From a virus (taxonomy: Duplodnaviria; Heunggongvirae; Uroviricota; Caudoviricetes): a stretch of DNA of 64,000 bases. Both the position numbers and the translations under genes were made by a program. The stretch's first letter is position 1. Every line of letters starts with the position of its first letter. Where the stretch lies: IMG/VR virus record IMGVR_UViG_3300031999_000001, positions 128,001 through 192,000 of that record; one strand, 5' to 3'. Of this stretch, positions 7,177 to 64,000 are shown piece by piece. The notes under the pieces were generated by a model that was not told the DNA's origin, did no database searches, and worked only from the letters and a program-made list of their open reading frames with translations.

Positions 7177-9672
7177 TTAAACTGTTTCCACATTTTCATC
7201 AGTAAATTTTATACCACGTTGAGTTAATATTTTCTTTGCTTCTTCTTTAGACATTCCACCCATAACACCAGCCATAGCTCCGGGCATTCTTACAGTTTTC
7301 TTTGCAATTTGTATTTGATGCCATGTTGCTGGGTCACGTTGTTTTAATTCACTTTCTTTTGACTCACCAAGTTCATTTTCTTTTTTTTCTGGTTCATCTG
7401 TTGACATTTTCTTTGCAAATTCTGCTGGAGAACCCATATCTTTATCTGGATTACTTAAATCAGCTTCTTCATTGCCTTCAACTTCATCACCAACATTTTT
7501 TGGTTTATAACCAAGAAGCATATCTGTCATTTCTTTATCATCTTGTTTTTCAAAACTTTCTGGTGGAAAATCTTTTGCTAATTGTCTATCATTAAAACAA
7601 CCTGAAGGATTCATTGGGTCAGTACTACCTGCACCATATTTTTCAACATCAGCTTCCATTTTTTCAAGACGATCATAATAATTAGGGATTTCAGTCAGGT
7701 GATCCATTGTTATTTCTATTGCAATCATTGGGTTGTCAGTATGTTCCAATTCAACTTTCATGCCTTTTAATATTTGTTCTGGGTCGAATTCCAATGGTGA
7801 TTTTTCATCACCTAATCCACCTTGAAGCATTTCACCCGTTTCTTCTTTATCTTGTGCAAGTTGTGCAACTTCATCACCTTGTGGTTCTAATGACATACCA
7901 TCATCAGGTTTTTCTTCAGTATCTGCTGGTGGTTCATTATCTGTTTGATGTGCTATTTGATCATCTGGATTTGTGATCTCTGATTTATTATCTTCATCTG
8001 ACATTTTTTCTTCTTCATTAAAATCAAATTTTGTATCATAAGGTAACGGATGTTTATCTCCAGATTTTTCCAAATCTTGACCAATATCATGTTTAGCAAC
8101 TTTTTTTGCTCCCCATCCTTTCGGAGCAGCAGGTAAATTTGCAATATCTTCATCTCCATATACTTCTTCTTCATTCATTGTTAGTTCATCTATTTTTGAT
8201 AAATCATATTGCAAACCAATATAACCAATACTTGGATTCCATGACATTATATAACCATCTTTACGATATGTTTTATCAGCAGTTCCATGATTTTCTTCTT
8301 GTGAACCTTCATGTTCTCCGGGGTAATGCCATTGCTTCAAATATTCTAATGCAGCATCTTCACCTTCTCTATCAAGTCTTTCAAGTGCATCAAACGCTTC
8401 ATCACCTTGTAAAAATACAACATTTTCATATTTATCATGATCTGTTGATTCATTAGCACTTATTTTAACTTTTTTTATTCTTATTTTCTTTTTCTTTGGA
8501 TAATGTGTTTCTGGTTTAAATTCCTTACCAATAATATCTGGATAATCATTTGTTTTATTCGTATTTTCTAAAAACGGTTCAGCTTCTTTTGGAAATACTC
8601 TTCTTTTCTCAGGTGTTACGGGTTTTTCACCGATAAGTATATTAATTTCTCCCATCAACTCATTTATTGTTGGTGCATAATCAGGATTTCCTTTTCTTGT
8701 GATTATATTATCATATGCCTGCCAGATTATTTTTTTCTTTTTTTCATTTATTTTAGGAACGGGTTCATCATCAACTTCTTTAGTATCATCAGTTGTTATT
8801 TGTGGAACTGTTATGGGTTGTTGCTGTGTTGCTTGTTTAAAACGTGCCAATTCCTGATTTATGATATCATCTTCTTCTTTATCCCATTCATTCAAATCAG
8901 CAATAACACTTTTGCCCGTAATTCTTTCAACCTCTGCTTTTAATTCTTGACTTGTCGGTACATAATTAGAATTTGTATTTTTTGTAATTAAATTATCATA
9001 TGCTGTATTAATAATCTGATAAGCCTTTGGTTTTGTAACACGTTGATTATCAAATTCATCCATTTCATTAATATATTTTTCAAGTTCTTCTGCACTTACC
9101 CTTACATCTGGATTTGTTGGTTTTTCATCAGCATATGCTTTACCTGTTTGCATATTATCCCTACCACCACCAAATGGATATGAATCAATTTTTTGTATTG
9201 CTTCTTCATAAAGACTATCAACAGGTTCTTCTTCTTCAATATCAATATATTCGTCAATAATATCAAACAATTCATTATTATGCTGTGCATTAAATTGTTT
9301 TAATGCGTTTTCATCCATTTCAACACTATTTTCACTATTTGCATCATCAAATGTGAAACTCATCATTATAACATTATCTATTTTATAAACACCTTCTTGA
9401 TCTTGTTCGCTTGAAATTGTTTTAAACGTAAATGTTATATTATTTCCATTGTTGTCAACACATAATAATTCAATAAAATTTTCATTATCTTTTGTTTGTG
9501 TATTACTGTGTTTTACTTTAAGATTACCACTTTTAAGTTCAGTAAATGCAACTTCAAGTACACTTTGGGGATTATAATTTTGTCCAAATGCTTCATTTAA
9601 TTTAATTTTATTAACATTTTGAAACATTTCCAAAAATCTTTCCTTACTTCCTATTTGCTTATATATTTTCAT
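7177..9672 (-). CDS. Large acidic protein with DUF5661-like domain; probable head-internal protein
   Basis: FDPEQILKGMKVELEHTDNPMIAIEITMDHLTEIPNYYDRL resembles DUF5661; internal AYDN(L/I)IT repeat; N-terminal GSKERFLEMF...KLNE leader. Confidence 0.6.
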   Translation of the reverse strand: MKIYKQIGSKERFLEMFQNVNKIKLNEAFGQNYNPQSVLEVAFTELKSGNLKVKHSNTQTKDNENFIELLCVDNNGNNITFTFKTISSEQDQEGVYKIDNVIMMSFTFDDANSENSVEMDENALKQFNAQHNNELFDIIDEYIDIEEEEPVDSLYEEAIQKIDSYPFGGGRDNMQTGKAYADEKPTNPDVRVSAEELEKYINEMDEFDNQRVTKPKAYQIINTAYDNLITKNTNSNYVPTSQELKAEVERITGKSVIADLNEWDKEEDDIINQELARFKQATQQQPITVPQITTDDTKEVDDEPVPKINEKKKKIIWQAYDNIITRKGNPDYAPTINELMGEINILIGEKPVTPEKRRVFPKEAEPFLENTNKTNDYPDIIGKEFKPETHYPKKKKIRIKKVKISANESTDHDKYENVVFLQGDEAFDALERLDREGEDAALEYLKQWHYPGEHEGSQEENHGTADKTYRKDGYIMSWNPSIGYIGLQYDLSKIDELTMNEEEVYGDEDIANLPAAPKGWGAKKVAKHDIGQDLEKSGDKHPLPYDTKFDFNEEEKMSDEDNKSEITNPDDQIAHQTDNEPPADTEEKPDDGMSLEPQGDEVAQLAQDKEETGEMLQGGLGDEKSPLEFDPEQILKGMKVELEHTDNPMIAIEITMDHLTEIPNYYDRLEKMEADVEKYGAGSTDPMNPSGCFNDRQLAKDFPPESFEKQDDKEMTDMLLGYKPKNVGDEVEGNEEADLSNPDKDMGSPAEFAKKMSTDEPEKKENELGESKESELKQRDPATWHQIQIAKKTVRMPGAMAGVMGGMSKEEAKKILTQRGIKFTDENVETV

Positions 9673-9684
9673 ATCTATTTATTT

Positions 9685-10131
9685 TTATTCAAAAATTATT
9701 GGATTCGTCTTACCGAATTCTCTTAAAAAAACACCAGCAAGTGCATTTGCTTCATTTTCATGTTCACTGCCAGTATTGTTTGAATTCGATGTTAATTTAC
9801 CCTCTTTATATTGCTTGTGATGTATTAATTCATGTGCTAATGTTCTTAATATGTCTGCTAAATTTCTATTTACTGCAACCACTCTTAATTCATTTGTTTC
9901 TGGTGTATATTTACCAAATGATTTCATATTTTCAGCTTCTTTATCATCATATGAAATTTTTATATCTGGCATTTTATCACCTAAATTAAGCTGTTTATCG
10001 GCATATTCAACAAATTTGTTAATAACCTCATTTTTCTTTTCAACAGGAAGTACCTGTTCATTAAGATTATTAACTTTTTTCATCATTTCAAAAAGCCTTT
10101 CTTTTGAACCATATGAATAAAATATTTTCAT
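9685..10131 (-). CDS. HExxH zinc metallopeptidase-like protein (IrrE/ImmA-like) with shared leader
   Basis: LRTLAHELIHHKQ with downstream ENEANALAG; leader GSKERLFEMMKKVNNLNE. Confidence 0.7.
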   Translation of the reverse strand: MKIFYSYGSKERLFEMMKKVNNLNEQVLPVEKKNEVINKFVEYADKQLNLGDKMPDIKISYDDKEAENMKSFGKYTPETNELRVVAVNRNLADILRTLAHELIHHKQYKEGKLTSNSNNTGSEHENEANALAGVFLREFGKTNPIIFE

Positions 10132-10133
10132 AA

Positions 10134-10673
10134 TTAACTTTCTGGTTCTCTACCCCTTAAATAAGGTGCTTCACTATCGTTTCCTGATTGATTTTTTGGT
10201 GTTTCTTGATTCCAAATTTCTTTTGCTTTATTATAAAAAGATTTTTCATCGCCAAAATTTTCACCAATTACTGGAAATGCACCCATTTTTTCAACAAGAT
10301 CAAAATCTTCAAGATGTTGAAGTTCTTCTGAACTCAACATTCCATCATAATCAGTTAAATCGCCATAATTATAAGCAATAGCATCTTTATAACCGGGTTT
10401 ACCTGTCACTACATTATAATTAATCTGTAATCTTTCATATAATGCGTGCCAATCAATTGAATTAAAATTACCAATACCTTGTTTATATTGTGGTCCGTCA
10501 TCACGTTCTGGTTCATCTTGTGGGTCAAAAGCATCAGGTTGATACTCTGTTCCCATTGGTTCACCTGCATCGTTTTTTACGGTATTCCAACCTTCATTCA
10601 ATTTTGGTTTAAATGTCGGGTCTATTTTTTGCATAACCTCAAAAAGTCTTTGTTTATTGTCTTTTTTAACCAT
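10134..10673 (-). CDS. Hypothetical acidic protein with shared leader (start probably MVKKDNKQRLFE at 10673)
   Basis: Leader KKDNKQRLFEVMQKIDPTFKPKLNE; this ATG lies directly after the upstream stop codon. Confidence 0.6.
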   Translation of the reverse strand: MVKKDNKQRLFEVMQKIDPTFKPKLNEGWNTVKNDAGEPMGTEYQPDAFDPQDEPERDDGPQYKQGIGNFNSIDWHALYERLQINYNVVTGKPGYKDAIAYNYGDLTDYDGMLSSEELQHLEDFDLVEKMGAFPVIGENFGDEKSFYNKAKEIWNQETPKNQSGNDSEAPYLRGREPES

Positions 10674-10674
10674 T

Positions 10675-11400
10675 TTATACAATTTCATTAAAACTATCTT
10701 GGACATCTATTTTTGATTTTTGCGGTAAATCATCAAAATCAGCAACAAACGTACCATCAGGTAATTTGTTTATGCCCTTTTCCATTTCTTTATTTCTTTT
10801 TTCATTAAACCAATTTCCTGACCAAAAATCATTTAAATTAAAATAATATGGATAAGAAACATTAGTTTTGCTCATAAGTTTTTCAGAATTGGTTGGTTCA
10901 CGAACTTCTTCAACATCAGCATTTAATGTATCTAATTTTGCATTTAATCCCTGAACAGTACTATCCAAACTTTCTAATTTATCATGAATACTTTTCATGG
11001 CTTCGATATTATGTTTAATAATATCATTTTGAATATCATCAACTTGTTGTTCTGGCTCTGCTGATGGCATTGGTGCACCCATACCCATAGGGTCGGTTGC
11101 TGTCATATCTACAGGTGCTCCATTTGTTTTTGTATCACCAGTTTTATCAAATGCTGGTATAGGAGCATCCATACCAATAGGTTGATCATTCGAAGGTGCT
11201 GGGGGCACTTCACCGCCACCCGGTTTTTCAGCATCTTCTTGATCACCAGCTTCATTAGTTAACGGAGGAACATCATCATATTCCTCGCCATCATTTACTA
11301 ATGGGCGATATTTGGGAGATTCGTTGATTATATAATCAACACGATGTTTAATCTTTCTTAAATGTTCTTTAGAAAGATTATTTTTCTTATCATTTTTCAT
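10675..11400 (-). CDS. Acidic Pro-rich/coiled-coil protein, possible head scaffold or internal protein
   Basis: IINE and LTNE sites, a low-complexity linker, a heptad segment and a YPY motif. Confidence 0.5.
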   Translation of the reverse strand: MKNDKKNNLSKEHLRKIKHRVDYIINESPKYRPLVNDGEEYDDVPPLTNEAGDQEDAEKPGGGEVPPAPSNDQPIGMDAPIPAFDKTGDTKTNGAPVDMTATDPMGMGAPMPSAEPEQQVDDIQNDIIKHNIEAMKSIHDKLESLDSTVQGLNAKLDTLNADVEEVREPTNSEKLMSKTNVSYPYYFNLNDFWSGNWFNEKRNKEMEKGINKLPDGTFVADFDDLPQKSKIDVQDSFNEIV

Positions 11401-11415
11401 TGTTAATGAATGTTA

Positions 11416-11607
11416 TTAATACCACTCTCTAAGTAATAGTTTTCCGTCCTTTGTTATATAAACTTTATCAACACGCTCGATAAGTCCTTCTCTTTCATCG
11501 AGAACAACTTTTTTTGCGTTTTCTTTTTTTGCTTTTTCTGCTAATTCTTCTTCAGTTTCAGGAGTTTCAACAAAATTTTCAAGTGCTTTTTCTACATTGT
11601 CTTCCAT
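11416..11607 (-). CDS. Small hypothetical protein heading a late operon
   Basis: 63-aa ORF preceded by tandem GTATTTAT motifs. Confidence 0.55.
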   Translation of the reverse strand: MEDNVEKALENFVETPETEEELAEKAKKENAKKVVLDEREGLIERVDKVYITKDGKLLLREWY

Positions 11608-11627: not shown

Positions 11628-11646
11628 ATAAATACTCAATAAATAC
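11628..11646 (-). promoter_or_regulatory. Two tandem GTATTTAT motifs
   Basis: + strand ATAAATAC at 11628-11635 and 11639-11646. Confidence 0.6.
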
Positions 11647-61252: not shown

Positions 61253-61804
61253 TTAATTTCCTTTTGTTTCGTTTAAAAATGGAACAACATCCTCTTTTAC
61301 TGGCACACCAGTTACTCGTTTCCAATATGATTTAAATCCACCAATCGTTTTATTTGTAGTATCTGTTACATTATTAGCACTTTCAACTTCATAATATCTG
61401 TTTTTTTGACCACTAATATTATATTCAATAACATCACCACGGTCAATTTCTATTTGTTTTTCTTCCAGTTCTTTAAGATAAACACCAAATATAATATTTC
61501 CACTATCATCACGTGCAATACCACCCTGATATCCACCATAATTTTCCTGTTTACCATCTTCAACTGTAATCATTACACTAATTCTAATTGGTAACATGTA
61601 TTTTTTGTCTTTTGTTTTTGCCTGACCATATAAATTATGTGATTTTGTTTCAATTAAATTGATTTTATGCAAAATAATTTCTTGAGCATTATCTGTTTGT
61701 AAAAAATTTCTACCGTACATCACATCTAATTCAAAAGAATTTTCTGTCATAAATAAACCCATTCTGTTATTTTCAAGGTCAATTATTTGTTTTTTCTTTT
61801 TCAT
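61253..61804 (-). CDS. Neck / head-closure protein (gp14-like)
   Basis: NLYGQA, IDRGDVI and YYEV motifs; downstream of the gp13-like gene. Confidence 0.6.
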   Translation of the reverse strand: MKKKKQIIDLENNRMGLFMTENSFELDVMYGRNFLQTDNAQEIILHKINLIETKSHNLYGQAKTKDKKYMLPIRISVMITVEDGKQENYGGYQGGIARDDSGNIIFGVYLKELEEKQIEIDRGDVIEYNISGQKNRYYEVESANNVTDTTNKTIGGFKSYWKRVTGVPVKEDVVPFLNETKGN

Positions 61805-62652
61805 TAATCAATTATTTTAAAGCCATCTGGTTCAAGTAAATTTACATCATTGGTAAATATTTGATATTGTTTGTCAATTACCCAATCTGGAACATTTGAT
61901 CTATCAATACCATTTTCAATATCTTTTTTTATTCTTTCTTTTGCAATTTCAGGACTAACACTAAATATTTTAGCAAAACCTTCAAATGGCATATCAACAT
62001 GAACTTTCATATAATCCATAAGCGATTTTCTATTTTTTGATTTAATATTTGTAGCATCAAAAATCACATCTTTACCAATATTTAGTACATCTGCAGTTTT
62101 TTTCATTGCCAATGCAAATACTTCATTATTTTTTGTTTGATCTGATATGTTTCCTGTTAATTCTTTTCTTATTTTATCTGGCGAAACAATAATAGTATTT
62201 GAATTTTGCATTGATTTAATCCACATAGATTTACCACTTCCTGAAATACCAACTGGAATAATTAATTTTGGTTTTTTTGTTTTTATTTCTTCTGCTATTT
62301 CAGTACCAATTTCATGTCCATTATCATCAAATTTATTTGGAAATTTTATTTTCCAATCAAAAAGTTTTTGCACGCCTTTATTATTTACAACCCCAATTTT
62401 TTCATCAATATTAATGTTTTTTCTAATTAATTTTTTCGCATCTTCTAATGTGAATTTTATAACACTTGGGTCACCATATTTTACACGATAATCGCATGTG
62501 TTGATACCATGTTGGTCTATTGATGTTACAAAACATTTACCATATCCACGTGATATTCGAAATATTGCCCATGTATTATCAATTGAATTTGAAAATTCTG
62601 GATTAAGTCTTTCCATCATTTCAAAAAGTCGTTGTTTGTTGTCTTTTTTCAT
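61804..62652 (-). CDS. P-loop kinase (AAA_33/PNK kinase-like) with shared N-terminal leader
   Basis: VGISGSGKS, SPDKIR, FDATN and R..VP..VI motifs; leader KKDNKQRLFEMM. Confidence 0.78.
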   Translation of the reverse strand: MKKDNKQRLFEMMERLNPEFSNSIDNTWAIFRISRGYGKCFVTSIDQHGINTCDYRVKYGDPSVIKFTLEDAKKLIRKNINIDEKIGVVNNKGVQKLFDWKIKFPNKFDDNGHEIGTEIAEEIKTKKPKLIIPVGISGSGKSMWIKSMQNSNTIIVSPDKIRKELTGNISDQTKNNEVFALAMKKTADVLNIGKDVIFDATNIKSKNRKSLMDYMKVHVDMPFEGFAKIFSVSPEIAKERIKKDIENGIDRSNVPDWVIDKQYQIFTNDVNLLEPDGFKIID

Positions 62653-62653
62653 A

Positions 62654-63772
62654 TTAAATTGCTATTATTGGGAACATTGGTGGTTGATAACCACGTTCTT
62701 TATTAACATTTTCAGCAATTTTAGCACGTTCTTCAGTAAAAGTAACCTGACTTAATTTATCTAATTGTTCTAATAATAATTTTTCAGTATCTTCTTTCAA
62801 TTTAGTGCCTTCTTCAAGCAAATGACGATAATCCATTGTTAATTGTTTTTCAGTAACACCAAGTTCACCACTATAGAAACCTCTAATACCACCAATTACA
62901 ATTTTTACTTGTGCAATAAGTAAATTACGAATTTGCTGATGTGCAACATCATTTATTTTGCTCCATTCTAATACTTTTGCTGGTGGGTCTGATGGTAATT
63001 TAATAACATCTGAATTTTCTTCTAAACATTTATCTCTACCTGTTTGATTAGTATCATAATACCAATACCAAACTTTTCTACCAGCATAATGTTTACCCCA
63101 CACACCTTGAATTTCATCACGAGAACCGGGTATTGGATACAAATGTAATAATTTTTCACCACTTGCCAAACCAGTAACACGATATGTTAATATTGATTGT
63201 AATACTCTTTGTTTCATTCTTCTATCCTGTGCAGATAATAGTGTTGAAAATGTTGGTTGTACATACATTGCGGGACGACCAAGATATGCCCATCCAACCA
63301 TACCGGGTGACCATGCATTCAATGCAAAGGGGTCAACCAAACCACCATCAATTTGTGGTGGTGTTTCCCACAATACTTCATTTATTTCACGACCCGCAGG
63401 AATTAAGTAATGTTGTGTACTTGCCTGAGTTACAATAAAATCACGTTTAAGTTCCCATCCAGTAGCAGCAGGTGCATTTGTTCCCAATCCTACTTGTCTT
63501 GAATATGCATATGTATAGGATTCCATATAAGTGTTTGATTTTGTAGTAAACGCCGATAAGAAATCGCTATTTTCTTTACTTAAACCTTCTAACCCAATCC
63601 ATTGCTGATGAATAAACCAATTATTTACTATTGATGAATAATCCTCAACAACCATTTCAAGATATGAATCCATCATTTCATCCTTTATTTCAAAAGGTCT
63701 TAATGGAAATCCCAATACATGTTTAACATGAAGGAATAATTTATTTTTATCAACTGTTGTTATTAGTGCCAT
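62654..63772 (-). CDS. Neck / head-tail adaptor protein (gp13-like)
   Basis: VKHVLGFP...EI.DE, LHLYPIP, IGGIRG.YSG and LTMDY..LLEEG motifs. Confidence 0.68.
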   Translation of the reverse strand: MALITTVDKNKLFLHVKHVLGFPLRPFEIKDEMMDSYLEMVVEDYSSIVNNWFIHQQWIGLEGLSKENSDFLSAFTTKSNTYMESYTYAYSRQVGLGTNAPAATGWELKRDFIVTQASTQHYLIPAGREINEVLWETPPQIDGGLVDPFALNAWSPGMVGWAYLGRPAMYVQPTFSTLLSAQDRRMKQRVLQSILTYRVTGLASGEKLLHLYPIPGSRDEIQGVWGKHYAGRKVWYWYYDTNQTGRDKCLEENSDVIKLPSDPPAKVLEWSKINDVAHQQIRNLLIAQVKIVIGGIRGFYSGELGVTEKQLTMDYRHLLEEGTKLKEDTEKLLLEQLDKLSQVTFTEERAKIAENVNKERGYQPPMFPIIAI

Positions 63773-63777
63773 ATATA

Positions 63778-63999
63778 TTAACTTCTACTTTGTGCTTTTT
63801 CACCAAAATAAACATATTTAAATTCAACGGGTTTTAGTAAATGATTACCTGCTGCAAGTTCATACACTCTACTAACAAACAATTTTCTTGTTGGAAATGG
63901 TGATGAATCTGTTCTTTGAGGTGGAAAAAATGGTTTAATTTCTTCAAAATCTGTTACAATTCTATAATTAGGAGGGTTTTTTAATCCTTCAATACCAGC
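63778..63999 (-). CDS. 3' end of a hypothetical protein (5' end outside the window)
   Basis: Open frame AGIEGLKNPPNYRIV...EKAQSRS* ending just before the gp13-like start. Confidence 0.5.
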   Translation of the reverse strand, partial: AGIEGLKNPPNYRIVTDFEEIKPFFPPQRTDSSPFPTRKLFVSRVYELAAGNHLLKPVEFKYVYFGEKAQSRS

Positions 64000-64000
64000 A

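What the first reader, a model, noticed from the sequence alone, without database searches (positions are those of the whole stretch)
7177..10673. Portable N-terminal leader shared by unrelated proteins: candidate capsid-targeting and processing signal
Seen in sequence: four proteins with unrelated bodies start with the same motif. They are MKIYKQIGSKERFLEMFQNVNKIKLNE (7177-9672), MKIFYSYGSKERLFEMMKKVNNLNE (HExxH peptidase), MVKKDNKQRLFEVMQKIDPTFKPKLNE (10134-10673) and, ~52 kb away, MKKDNKQRLFEMMERLNPEF (kinase, 61804-62652). 10675-11400 has a looser version (SKEHLRKIK...IINE). Established: T4 internal proteins use a short N-terminal capsid-targeting sequence, and T4 gp21-type prohead proteases cut after (L/I)xE. 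Inference: K(E/Q)R(L/F)(F/L)E(M/V) is a modular docking helix that loads diverse cargo into the prohead, and LNE is the removal site. This would be a plug-in system for packaging and injecting enzymes.
Basis: partly seen in the sequence, partly recalled or inferred. Interest (0 to 1): 0.85.

Follow-up and report, generated by a model that had tools for sequence, protein, structure and literature searches.

The report
Shared capsid-address leader on phage proteins
An uncultured giant T4-like phage starts at least five unrelated proteins with the same 25-27-residue peptide ending in the cutting motif of the T4-type head protease, most likely a larger version of T4's "load into the head, then clip" tag, though neither packaging nor cutting has been measured.

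Summary
In the 200-kb contig the motif K[EQ]R[LF][FL]E[MV] occurs four times in all six frames, always at an N-terminus. A fifth member straddles the window end. The 241-aa protein is not a member.

The contig is a 61%-complete fragment of an uncultured clade of 320-365 kb phages with a T4 Gp23-type capsid protein. Five complete relatives each carry 5-12 leader genes and a T4 gp21-type (Peptidase_S77) head protease.

A leader profile finds 431 protein clusters in 1.84 billion proteins, and 147 of the 149 top hits that the shorter leader profile re-detected begin at residues 1-12. The consensus is MKKD[SN]KQRLFEVMx[RK][LV]DKTFKPKLNE. Conservation falls from about 4.3 bits to about 1 right after LNE. 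Bodies fall into about 160 clusters.

The capsid protein has a conserved (I/L)(N/K)E at its expected propeptide cut. Internal leader copies in polyprotein-like relatives are bracketed by hydrophobic-x-Glu motifs.

Best reading (0.65): a T4-type capsid-targeting propeptide removed by the head protease. Packaging and cleavage are inferred only. The principle is known from T4, so this is a new variant. The scan has noted similar leaders in many other T4-like phage genomes.

The parts
9592..9672 (-). Leader of the 831-aa protein (residues 1-27, MKIYKQIGSKERFLEMFQNVNKIKLNE)
   Evidence: HMM E 2.6e-9. Orthologues in relatives keep it.
7177..9591 (-). Body of the 831-aa cargo protein: conserved N-domain, acidic low-complexity stretches, DUF5661 at residues 632-673
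   Evidence: PF18905, E 2.2e-10; structure match to DUF5661 only. Syntenic orthologues of 479-828 aa in relatives.
10057..10131 (-). Leader of the 148-aa peptidase (residues 1-25, ...GSKERLFEMMKKVNNLNE)
   Evidence: E 2.2e-10. AlphaFold gives pLDDT below 50 for residues 1-8 and 10-25, with a helix at 9-24.
9685..10056 (-). Body of the 148-aa protein: small HExxH zinc peptidase (M78/IrrE/SprT-like minimal zincin)
   Evidence: Peptidase_M78, 22.3 bits against a cut-off of 22; phrog_87 metallo-protease. Model pLDDT is about 90 from residue 30. Weak fold matches to Spartan/Wss1, selecase and IrrE.
10593..10673 (-). Leader of the 179-aa protein (residues 1-27, MVKKDNKQRLFEVMQKIDPTFKPKLNE), the copy closest to the clade consensus
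   Evidence: (E 3e-17)
10134..10592 (-). Body of the 179-aa cargo protein (GWN...NDAGEP type, acidic, no known family). It is an insertion between two conserved genes when compared with relatives.
   Evidence: no family. The same body type follows internal leaders in P0001, P0004 and P0006. Synteny.
62593..62652 (-). Leader of the 282-aa kinase (MKKDNKQRLFEMMERLNPEF), with no [LIVM]xE site after it
   Evidence: E 7e-14. AlphaFold gives pLDDT below 50 for residues 1-25, with a helix at 5-15.
61804..62592 (-). Body of the 282-aa protein: beta-rich N-domain (TWAIFRI type) plus a Pnkp-type polynucleotide 5'-kinase P-loop domain
   Evidence: AAA_33, E 1.9e-18; phrog_505 polynucleotide kinase; PDB 4gp7/4jst E 7e-12, Pnkp1 8e-6. 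Syntenic kinases occur with and without the leader.
63778..64000 (-). C-terminal part of the fifth leader protein (234 aa). Its leader lies just outside the window, at window-equivalent 64402-64482.
   Evidence: E 1e-12; L001:2778-3482:-
10675..11400 (-). 241-aa conserved syntenic protein. It is NOT a leader-family member but has its own about 27-residue N-terminus ending in a conserved I(N/S)E|SP(K/R)YRPLV. Possible separate protease substrate.
11628..11646 (-). Two GTATTTAT promoter-like motifs, 20 and 31 nt upstream of the first gene (11416-11607) of the operon 63 aa - 241 aa - 179 aa - 148 aa - 831 aa
   Evidence: The same motif lies 16 nt upstream of the 234-aa gene (window-equivalent 64499) and upstream of the sheath, tube and baseplate genes.

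Best explanation
The 25-27-residue leader is most likely a capsid-targeting propeptide of the T4 kind. Its conserved amphipathic segment (KQRLFEVMx[RK][LV]D) would dock the precursor onto the scaffolding core while the prohead assembles. The phage's gp21-type serine protease (Peptidase_S77) would then cut after the Glu of the terminal (L/I)NE. That frees the mature cargo inside the head, to leave with the DNA at the next infection.

Shown here:
- The tag is a portable, protein-level-conserved, almost always N-terminal module.
- Its conservation ends exactly at LNE.
- It is attached to more than 100 unrelated bodies.
- The clade has T4-type capsid and protease genes.
- The capsid protein keeps the same tripeptide type at its expected maturation cut.

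Inferred: docking, packaging, cleavage and injection.

In this window the cargo would be an HExxH zinc peptidase, a Pnkp-type polynucleotide kinase, a DUF5661-containing 831-aa protein and two proteins without known families. The kinase type has no cut site and may keep its tag.
For: - Position: 4 exact motif hits in the whole contig, all N-terminal. The HMM finds 5 members and nothing else.
- Relatives: 5-12 leader ORFs of 47-828 aa in each of 5 complete relatives, all N-terminal.
- Spread: 431 clusters in 1.84 billion proteins. 147 of the 149 top hits that the leader HMM re-detected have the leader at residues 1-12.
- Boundary: 253 of 281 leaders have [LIVM]xE within 28 residues after the core, 219 of them LNE, at a fixed spacing in 187. 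Information content is 4.05-4.32 bits at L-N-E, then 1.19, then below 0.9.
- Bodies: about 160 clusters among 267. They include Pfam families that occur independently elsewhere, namely AAA_33, M78 and DUF5661.
- Enzyme: Gp23-type capsid protein, E 6e-74. Peptidase_S77 lies about 2 kb upstream of the capsid gene in 5 of 5 complete relatives. T4 gp21 cuts after L/I-x-E and removes 10-19-residue capsid targeting sequences (PMC9026906, PMC3012670).
- Same cut type in the capsid protein: INE 71, LKE 3, LNE 2 of 76 homologues, in the stretch where T4 gp23 is cut at LTE|A.
- Internal leader copies: 16 of 20 have [LIVM]xE within 14 residues upstream (31% in random windows) and 17 of 20 have it downstream. 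Shuffled modules start right after LNE.
- AlphaFold: the leader is a low-confidence helix set apart from confidently folded bodies.
- Selection acts on the peptide: synonymous codon differences.
- Leader genes fill variable slots between conserved genes downstream of the capsid gene. This resembles the hypervariable internal-protein genes of T-even phages (PMC3012670).
Against: - There is no experimental datum. No cultured relative exists (best capsid identity 31-43%), and the leader is absent from 50,697 deposited phage records.
- The protease gene is not on this contig, which ends inside the scaffold gene.
- The leader is 25-27 residues, against 10-19 in T4.
- About 10% of leaders, including the kinase here, lack an [LIVM]xE site.
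- Syntenic kinases in two relatives lack the leader, so the tag is dispensable for that enzyme.
- LNE is a common tripeptide in this AT-rich proteome, so its mere presence is weak evidence. The weight lies in its fixed position and the conservation drop.
- The library representatives are related to each other, so the counts are not independent events.
- The GTATTTAT motif also precedes non-structural genes, so late timing is not established.
Confidence: 0.65

Rival explanations
1. The leader is a docking tag for some other common partner or destination, such as a tail or baseplate site, a cytoplasmic assembly, a chaperone or the membrane. It is retained on the mature protein, and LNE merely ends a helix-linker unit.
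For: - The kinase-type members and about 10% of leaders have no cut motif.
- Leader genes also lie far from the head genes and on both strands in complete relatives.
- The predicted helix is amphipathic but of low confidence.
Against: - The drop in conservation falls exactly after Glu, at a fixed distance.
- The capsid protein has the same tripeptide type at its cut position.
- Internal copies are bracketed by hydrophobic-x-Glu on both sides.
- There is no hydrophobic stretch for membrane targeting (sequence).
Confidence: 0.12
2. The leader is a removable propeptide, but the processing enzyme is not the head protease. It could be the co-conserved, itself leader-tagged HExxH peptidase (9685-10131) or a host protease. 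The tag would then serve as a zymogen or inhibitory segment rather than an address.
For: - The peptidase and the 831-aa gene form a conserved pair in all complete relatives examined.
- Minimal zincins such as selecase and jannalysin are known as zymogens (PDB titles).
Against: - Cleavage after Glu in L/I-x-E is the documented specificity of gp21-type proteases (PMC9026906), and the clade encodes one.
- The capsid protein shares the motif.
- Most bodies are not enzymes and have nothing to inhibit.
- In the model the leader does not pack on the peptidase domain.
Confidence: 0.08
3. The shared 5' end is kept mainly as a recombination handle or a translation-start element that lets cargo genes be swapped or expressed. 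The peptide itself has no function.
For: - Leader genes occupy variable slots within a conserved gene frame.
- Bodies are mosaics of shuffled modules.
Against: - Synonymous codons differ between copies while the residues are kept.
- Internal copies occur far from any start codon.
- Residue-level conservation holds across 431 clusters at 50% identity or less.
Confidence: 0.05

Closest known systems
Phage T4 capsid targeting sequence (CTS) of the internal proteins IPI, IPII, IPIII and Alt, removed by the gp21 prohead protease
   Same: - An N-terminal tag on otherwise unrelated proteins.
- The tag ends in L/I-x-E, the gp21 cut motif.
- The phage has Gp23-type capsid and Peptidase_S77 protease genes.
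- Cargo genes are diverse and variable between related phages.
- Enzymes are among the cargo: Alt in T4, a peptidase and a kinase here (PMC9026906, PMC3012670).
   Different: - The leader is 25-27 residues, not 10-19.
- I saw no obvious resemblance to the T4 CTS, but did not test this formally.
- There are 5-12 tagged genes per genome and 431 clusters overall, against a handful in T4.
- Some relatives carry a second, internal leader bracketed by cut motifs (polyprotein-like).
- Some members lack the cut site.
- Packaging and cleavage are untested here.
Propeptides of head and ejection proteins of giant phages phiKZ, 201phi2-1 and SPN3US, cut by diverged gp21 homologues
   Same: - Giant phages with many head-internal proteins processed C-terminal to Glu by a gp21-related protease.
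- Propeptides can contain several cut sites (PMC9026906).
   Different: - Those phages cut at S/A-x-E, whereas the motif here is (L/I)NE.
- The review read here (PMC9026906) does not mention a single shared leader sequence on their cargo.
- Their capsid and other genes belong to a different lineage.
Phage P1 DarB N-terminal packaging signal
   Same: An N-terminal stretch of about 30 residues is sufficient to direct a heterologous protein into the capsid (PMC9024508). The length is similar to the leader here.
   Different: - It was shown for one protein of a stepwise Dar system, not as a tag shared by many unrelated proteins.
- The passages read do not report a terminal L/I-x-E cut site.
- P1 is not a T4-type phage.
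MuF-domain polymorphic toxins of temperate phages (recalled from memory, Jamet et al. 2017; not checked here)
   Same: A conserved N-terminal head-associated module is fused to highly variable C-terminal effector domains that are presumed to travel in the capsid.
   Different: - The conserved part is a whole MuF head-morphogenesis domain of several hundred residues, not a 26-residue peptide.
- No protease removal is implied.

Membership tests
T4-type capsid targeting sequence / gp21-processed internal proteins | The tag sits at the extreme N-terminus of the precursor | tested here: met
   All 5 members in the contig, all hits in relatives, and 147 of the 149 top library hits re-detected by the leader HMM at residues 1-12. 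About 20 proteins carry an additional internal copy.
T4-type capsid targeting sequence / gp21-processed internal proteins | The tag ends in the gp21 cut motif L/I-x-E | tested here: met
   253 of 281 leaders have [LIVM]xE, 219 of them LNE and 12 INE, at a fixed spacing in 187. In the window this is met by the 831-, 148-, 179- and 234-aa proteins and not met by the 282-aa kinase.
T4-type capsid targeting sequence / gp21-processed internal proteins | The phage encodes a gp21-type (Peptidase_S77) prohead protease and a Gp23-type capsid protein | tested here: inconclusive
   Gp23 is on this contig, E 6e-74. Peptidase_S77 is absent from this 61%-complete contig but is present over the cut-off in 5 of 5 complete relatives, directly upstream of scaffold and capsid genes. 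The contig ends inside the scaffold gene.
T4-type capsid targeting sequence / gp21-processed internal proteins | Only the tag is conserved, and the mature parts are unrelated and variable between related phages | tested here: met
   Information content drops from 4.3 to 1.2 bits after E. There are about 160 body clusters. Leader genes occupy variable slots in a conserved gene frame.
T4-type capsid targeting sequence / gp21-processed internal proteins | Tag length of 10-19 residues (PMC9026906) | tested here: not met
   25-27 residues in the window. The clade consensus is 26.
T4-type capsid targeting sequence / gp21-processed internal proteins | The tag is sufficient to load a foreign protein into the head and is removed in mature virions | not testable with these tools
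   This needs a cultured phage or a reconstituted prohead/protease system. No cultured relative was found.
phiKZ-like giant-phage propeptides | Cleavage motif S/A-x-E (PMC9026906) | tested here: not met
   The residue at P3 is L, I, V or M in 253 of 281 leaders.
Peptidase_M78 / IrrE-ImmA-like zinc peptidase (148-aa cargo) | HExxH zinc site and a match to the family profile over its cut-off | tested here: met
   HELIH is present and invariant H100, E101, H104 in 9 homologues. PF06114 scores 22.3 bits against a cut-off of 22, which is marginal. phrog_87 scores 1.2e-7. Fold matches are only weak, E 0.02-0.6.
Pnkp-type polynucleotide 5'-kinase (282-aa cargo, C-domain) | P-loop kinase domain matching solved Pnkp kinase domains | tested here: met
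   The GISGSGKS P-loop is invariant. AAA_33 scores E 1.9e-18. PDB 4gp7/4jst score E 7e-12 and Pnkp1 4xrp 8e-6. Substrate was not tested.

The most novel reading that the evidence does not exclude
The leader is a universal address label for a large, fast-shuffling arsenal of proteins that this widespread clade of uncultured giant phages injects with its DNA. The arsenal would include polyproteins whose modules are cut apart at (L/I)NE and hydrophobic-x-Glu joints. If so, one 26-residue profile would list hundreds of candidate first-strike effectors (anti-defence proteins, RNA-repair kinases, regulatory peptidases) directly from metagenomes. The tag could also be reused to load foreign proteins into such capsids.
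Probability: 0.45. Interest if true: 0.7.

Novelty: new variant of a known kind. Interest (0 to 1): 0.55.

Why it matters
T4's capsid targeting sequence is the textbook case of a virus loading arbitrary proteins into its head and delivering them to the next cell. Its known natural cargo is only a handful of proteins.

Here the same logic appears scaled up, with one highly conserved 26-residue tag:
- 5-12 tagged genes per genome;
- 431 protein clusters in public data;
- enzymes among the cargo;
- polyprotein-like chains.

The phages are abundant uncultured giants for which almost nothing is known.

If the tag is confirmed, it gives a sequence-only way to find the proteins these phages send in with their DNA, which are prime candidates for anti-defence functions. 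It would also give a second, longer natural packaging tag for engineering. If it is refuted, the sharply bounded, portable leader still needs an explanation.

Tried and rejected
- Close DNA relatives among deposited phages: none.
- The leader among 50,697 deposited phage records by tblastn: only chance matches to lambda-like tail genes at E of 1 or more. No virion proteome can be borrowed.
- Peptidase_S77 in the window's own contig: not found. The contig is truncated.
- The 241-aa protein as a 'looser' member: rejected by the HMM and by profile-profile comparison.
- Function of the 234-aa and 831-aa bodies through the protein atlas: no usable hit beyond DUF5661.
- The neighbouring conserved genes (372 aa and 478 aa) against solved structures: nothing. 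Their roles stay unknown.
The environment and host of the leader-bearing contigs were not determined.
- The GTATTTAT motif as proof of late expression: it precedes both leader operons and many structural genes, but also non-structural genes. I do not claim timing.
- Not attempted: co-folding the leader with scaffold, capsid or protease (no multimer prediction is available here), and a formal dN/dS test.
Full report
**What is there**

The window is bases 128001-192000 of a 200,057-bp linear virus record with 28% G+C, estimated 61% complete.

The regex K[EQ]R[LF][FL]E[MV] matches four times in the six-frame translation of the window and of the whole contig. Each match follows a start Met directly.

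A fifth member (234 aa, MKTEINKQRLQEVMSIIDNEYRLIE) starts 482 bases past the window end. Only its C-terminal end is inside the window.

A profile of the five leaders scores them at E 3e-17 to 2.6e-9 against the contig's six frames. The next hit is E 0.086.

The copies use different synonymous codons for the conserved Ser, Lys, Arg, Leu, Glu and Val. So the peptide is under selection, not the DNA.

The five bodies have nothing in common:
- an 831-aa protein with a DUF5661 segment;
- a 148-aa HExxH peptidase;
- a 179-aa acidic protein with no known family;
- a 282-aa protein with a polynucleotide-kinase domain;
- a 234-aa protein with no known family.

It gets no HMM hit, and a profile-profile comparison aligns only five columns around (L/I)NE, probability 0.9%. 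It is a conserved syntenic gene with its own N-terminus of about 27 residues ending in I(N/S)E|SP(K/R)YRPLV.

**What phage this is**

The contig encodes a T4 Gp23-type major capsid protein (E 6e-74), a T4-type sheath, tube and baseplate protein, and a scaffold-like gene cut off by the contig end.

The capsid protein has 156 relatives at 74-89% identity (in the 80 loci kept) among IMG/VR contigs, many of 320-365 kb. No cultured relative is closer than 31-43% identity; the nearest are metagenomic huge phages, Flavobacterium phage immuto and Microcystis phage Mel-JY01.

All five complete relatives tested encode a Peptidase_S77 (T4 gp21) prohead protease over the Pfam cut-off. It lies directly upstream of scaffold and capsid genes. 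In the window's contig that position lies beyond the contig end.

**How widespread and how modular the leader is**

In loci around the capsid gene of relatives, the leader profile finds 28 ORFs, all at N-termini, with ORF lengths of 105-374 aa. Each complete relative has 5-12 leader ORFs of 47-828 aa.

Against 1.84 billion representative proteins, the profile finds 431 clusters at E of 0.001 or better. Of the top 150 hits, 149 were re-detected by the leader HMM, and 147 of those have the leader at residues 1-12.

The consensus is MKKD[SN]KQRLFEVMx[RK][LV]DKTFKPKLNE. Of 281 leaders, 253 have [LIVM]xE within 28 residues after the core. 219 of these are LNE, and 187 sit at one fixed spacing.

Column information content is 4.05, 4.14 and 4.32 bits at L, N and E. 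It falls to 1.19 at the next residue and stays below 0.9 after that.

The bodies fall into about 160 clusters at 60% mutual coverage among 267 proteins. Most have no Pfam family. Those that do carry AAA_33, M78 or DUF5661.

Downstream of the capsid gene, two conserved genes (372 aa and 183 aa) frame slots that hold different leader genes, or none, in different relatives. The kinase in that slot occurs with the leader in some phages and without it in two.

**Evidence that (L/I)NE is a cut site**

T4 gp21 cuts after L/I-x-E and removes the 10-19-residue capsid targeting sequences of the internal proteins (PMC9026906). The internal proteins of T-even phages are diverse, with only that sequence conserved (PMC3012670).

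In an alignment with T4 gp23, the capsid protein here has INE|S between the conserved FENQ helix and the RR motif. This is the stretch where T4 is cut at LTE|A. Among 76 homologues the site is INE in 71, LKE in 3 and LNE in 2.

About 20 library proteins carry a second, internal leader. 16 of these have [LIVM]xE within 14 residues upstream, against 31% of random windows in the same proteins. 17 have it downstream. These proteins are related to one another, so the counts are not independent.

In these chains, recurring modules (YDNYNYPAGAD..., WNFDKKKGE..., GGWNLPD...) begin right after LNE.

AlphaFold models were built from alignments of homologues. They give confident folded bodies: pLDDT about 90 from residue 30 of the peptidase, and 70-87 for the kinase domains. 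Leader residues 1-25 come out below 50, as a lone helix.

**Best reading**

The leader is most likely a capsid-targeting propeptide that docks cargo to the assembling core and is clipped at (L/I)NE by the head protease.

The shown steps are modularity, N-terminal position, the sharp boundary, protein-level selection, the T4-type head machinery of the clade, and the matching motif in the capsid protein. Docking, packaging, cleavage and injection are inferred.

Points against this reading:
- The leader is about twice as long as T4's.
- About a tenth of leaders, including the kinase here, lack a cut site.
- LNE is a common tripeptide in this proteome.
- The GTATTTAT promoter-like motif precedes both leader operons and many structural genes but also other genes, so late timing is not shown.
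- No virion data exist.

I put this reading at 0.65. The rivals are:
- a retained tag for another destination (0.12);
- processing by the leader-tagged HExxH peptidase or a host enzyme (0.08);
- a recombination or translation handle (0.05).

**The cargo in the window**

The 148-aa protein is a minimal HExxH zincin. Its M78 match is marginal, and its fold matches to Spartan/Wss1, selecase and IrrE are weak.

The C-domain of the 282-aa protein matches the kinase domain of bacterial Pnkp RNA-repair enzymes (E 7e-12). Its N-domain also occurs alone behind the leader in other phages.

The functions of the 831-, 179- and 234-aa proteins remain unknown.

**Comparison and novelty**

The principle is that of T4's CTS and internal proteins. 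It differs in these ways:
- tag length;
- no obvious sequence resemblance, though this was not formally tested;
- the number of tagged genes;
- internal, bracketed leader copies;
- members without a cut site.

No Pfam or PHROG family covers the leader. Two literature searches found no description of it.

The scan itself has noted leaders of this kind in many other T4-like phage genomes, including one that looks like a relative of this clade. Those are unchecked notes and do not count as independent evidence.

I class this as a new variant of a known kind.

Host and environment therefore remain undetermined.

Noticed in passing
L120:53-1981 (-) (G002, a 348,923-bp complete relative): The prohead protease gene is 642 aa instead of about 233. 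The two halves of the Peptidase_S77 match are separated by an insert of about 370 residues with a weak Intein_splicing hit (E 1.3e-4, below the cut-off). This is probably an intein inside the head protease.
   Followed up: partly
window 10675-11400 (-): A conserved syntenic 241-aa protein has its own N-terminus of about 27 residues, ending in I(N/S)E followed by a conserved SP(K/R)YRPLV, then a Pro/Gly/acidic stretch. It could be a separate protease substrate or a core protein of the head.
   Followed up: partly
library proteins P0001, P0004, P0006, P0015, P0016, P0034 (not in the window): These are polyprotein-like chains: leader, body, hydrophobic-x-Glu, second leader, LNE, second body. Short modules recur in different orders (YDNYNYPAGADADPNAPWNQ, WNFDKKKGE plus a Lys/Glu-rich stretch, IPVNxIAKVGGK).
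   Followed up: partly
whole contig; in the window e.g. 7098, 11628, 11639, 35570, 38490, 39665, 49138, 52062, 57793: GTATTTAT occurs 65 times. About 43 copies are intergenic and lie 11-80 nt upstream of a co-oriented gene, including the sheath, tube and baseplate genes and both leader operons, but also non-structural genes. It is a phage promoter-like element of unknown timing.
   Followed up: partly
L001:6316-8106 (-), 3.3 kb beyond the window end: One ORF joins a Mom-family domain (E 8.6e-23) to a GIY-YIG nuclease domain, directly downstream of the capsid gene. Relatives have it in variable length or lack it.
   Followed up: partly
L034 about 16609 (+) and L039 about 16070 (+): Syntenic kinases in two relatives lack the leader helix. 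One keeps only a remnant, M-I-E-N-F-K-P-K. These are natural with-and-without-tag pairs of the same enzyme.
   Followed up: no
L003:16150 (+), 150-aa ORF in the slot between the 372-aa and 183-aa genes: A different short N-terminus, MNNKLLNIINE|E, ends in INE after 11 residues. This may be a second, T4-length tag type in the same clade.
   Followed up: no
window 62654-63772 (-) and 61253-61804 (-): The 372-aa and 183-aa proteins that frame the variable leader-gene slots were found in most relatives examined (17 and 15 of 19 loci, some of which end before that position). They have no match in Pfam or PHROGs, and the 372-aa protein has none in the PDB. They are likely core virion or assembly proteins of unknown role.
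   Followed up: partly
L002:1145-2317 (-) (contig start): A 390-aa protein with an N-terminal membrane helix and an SPFH/Band 7 domain (E 3.7e-7) is encoded by the phage.
   Followed up: no
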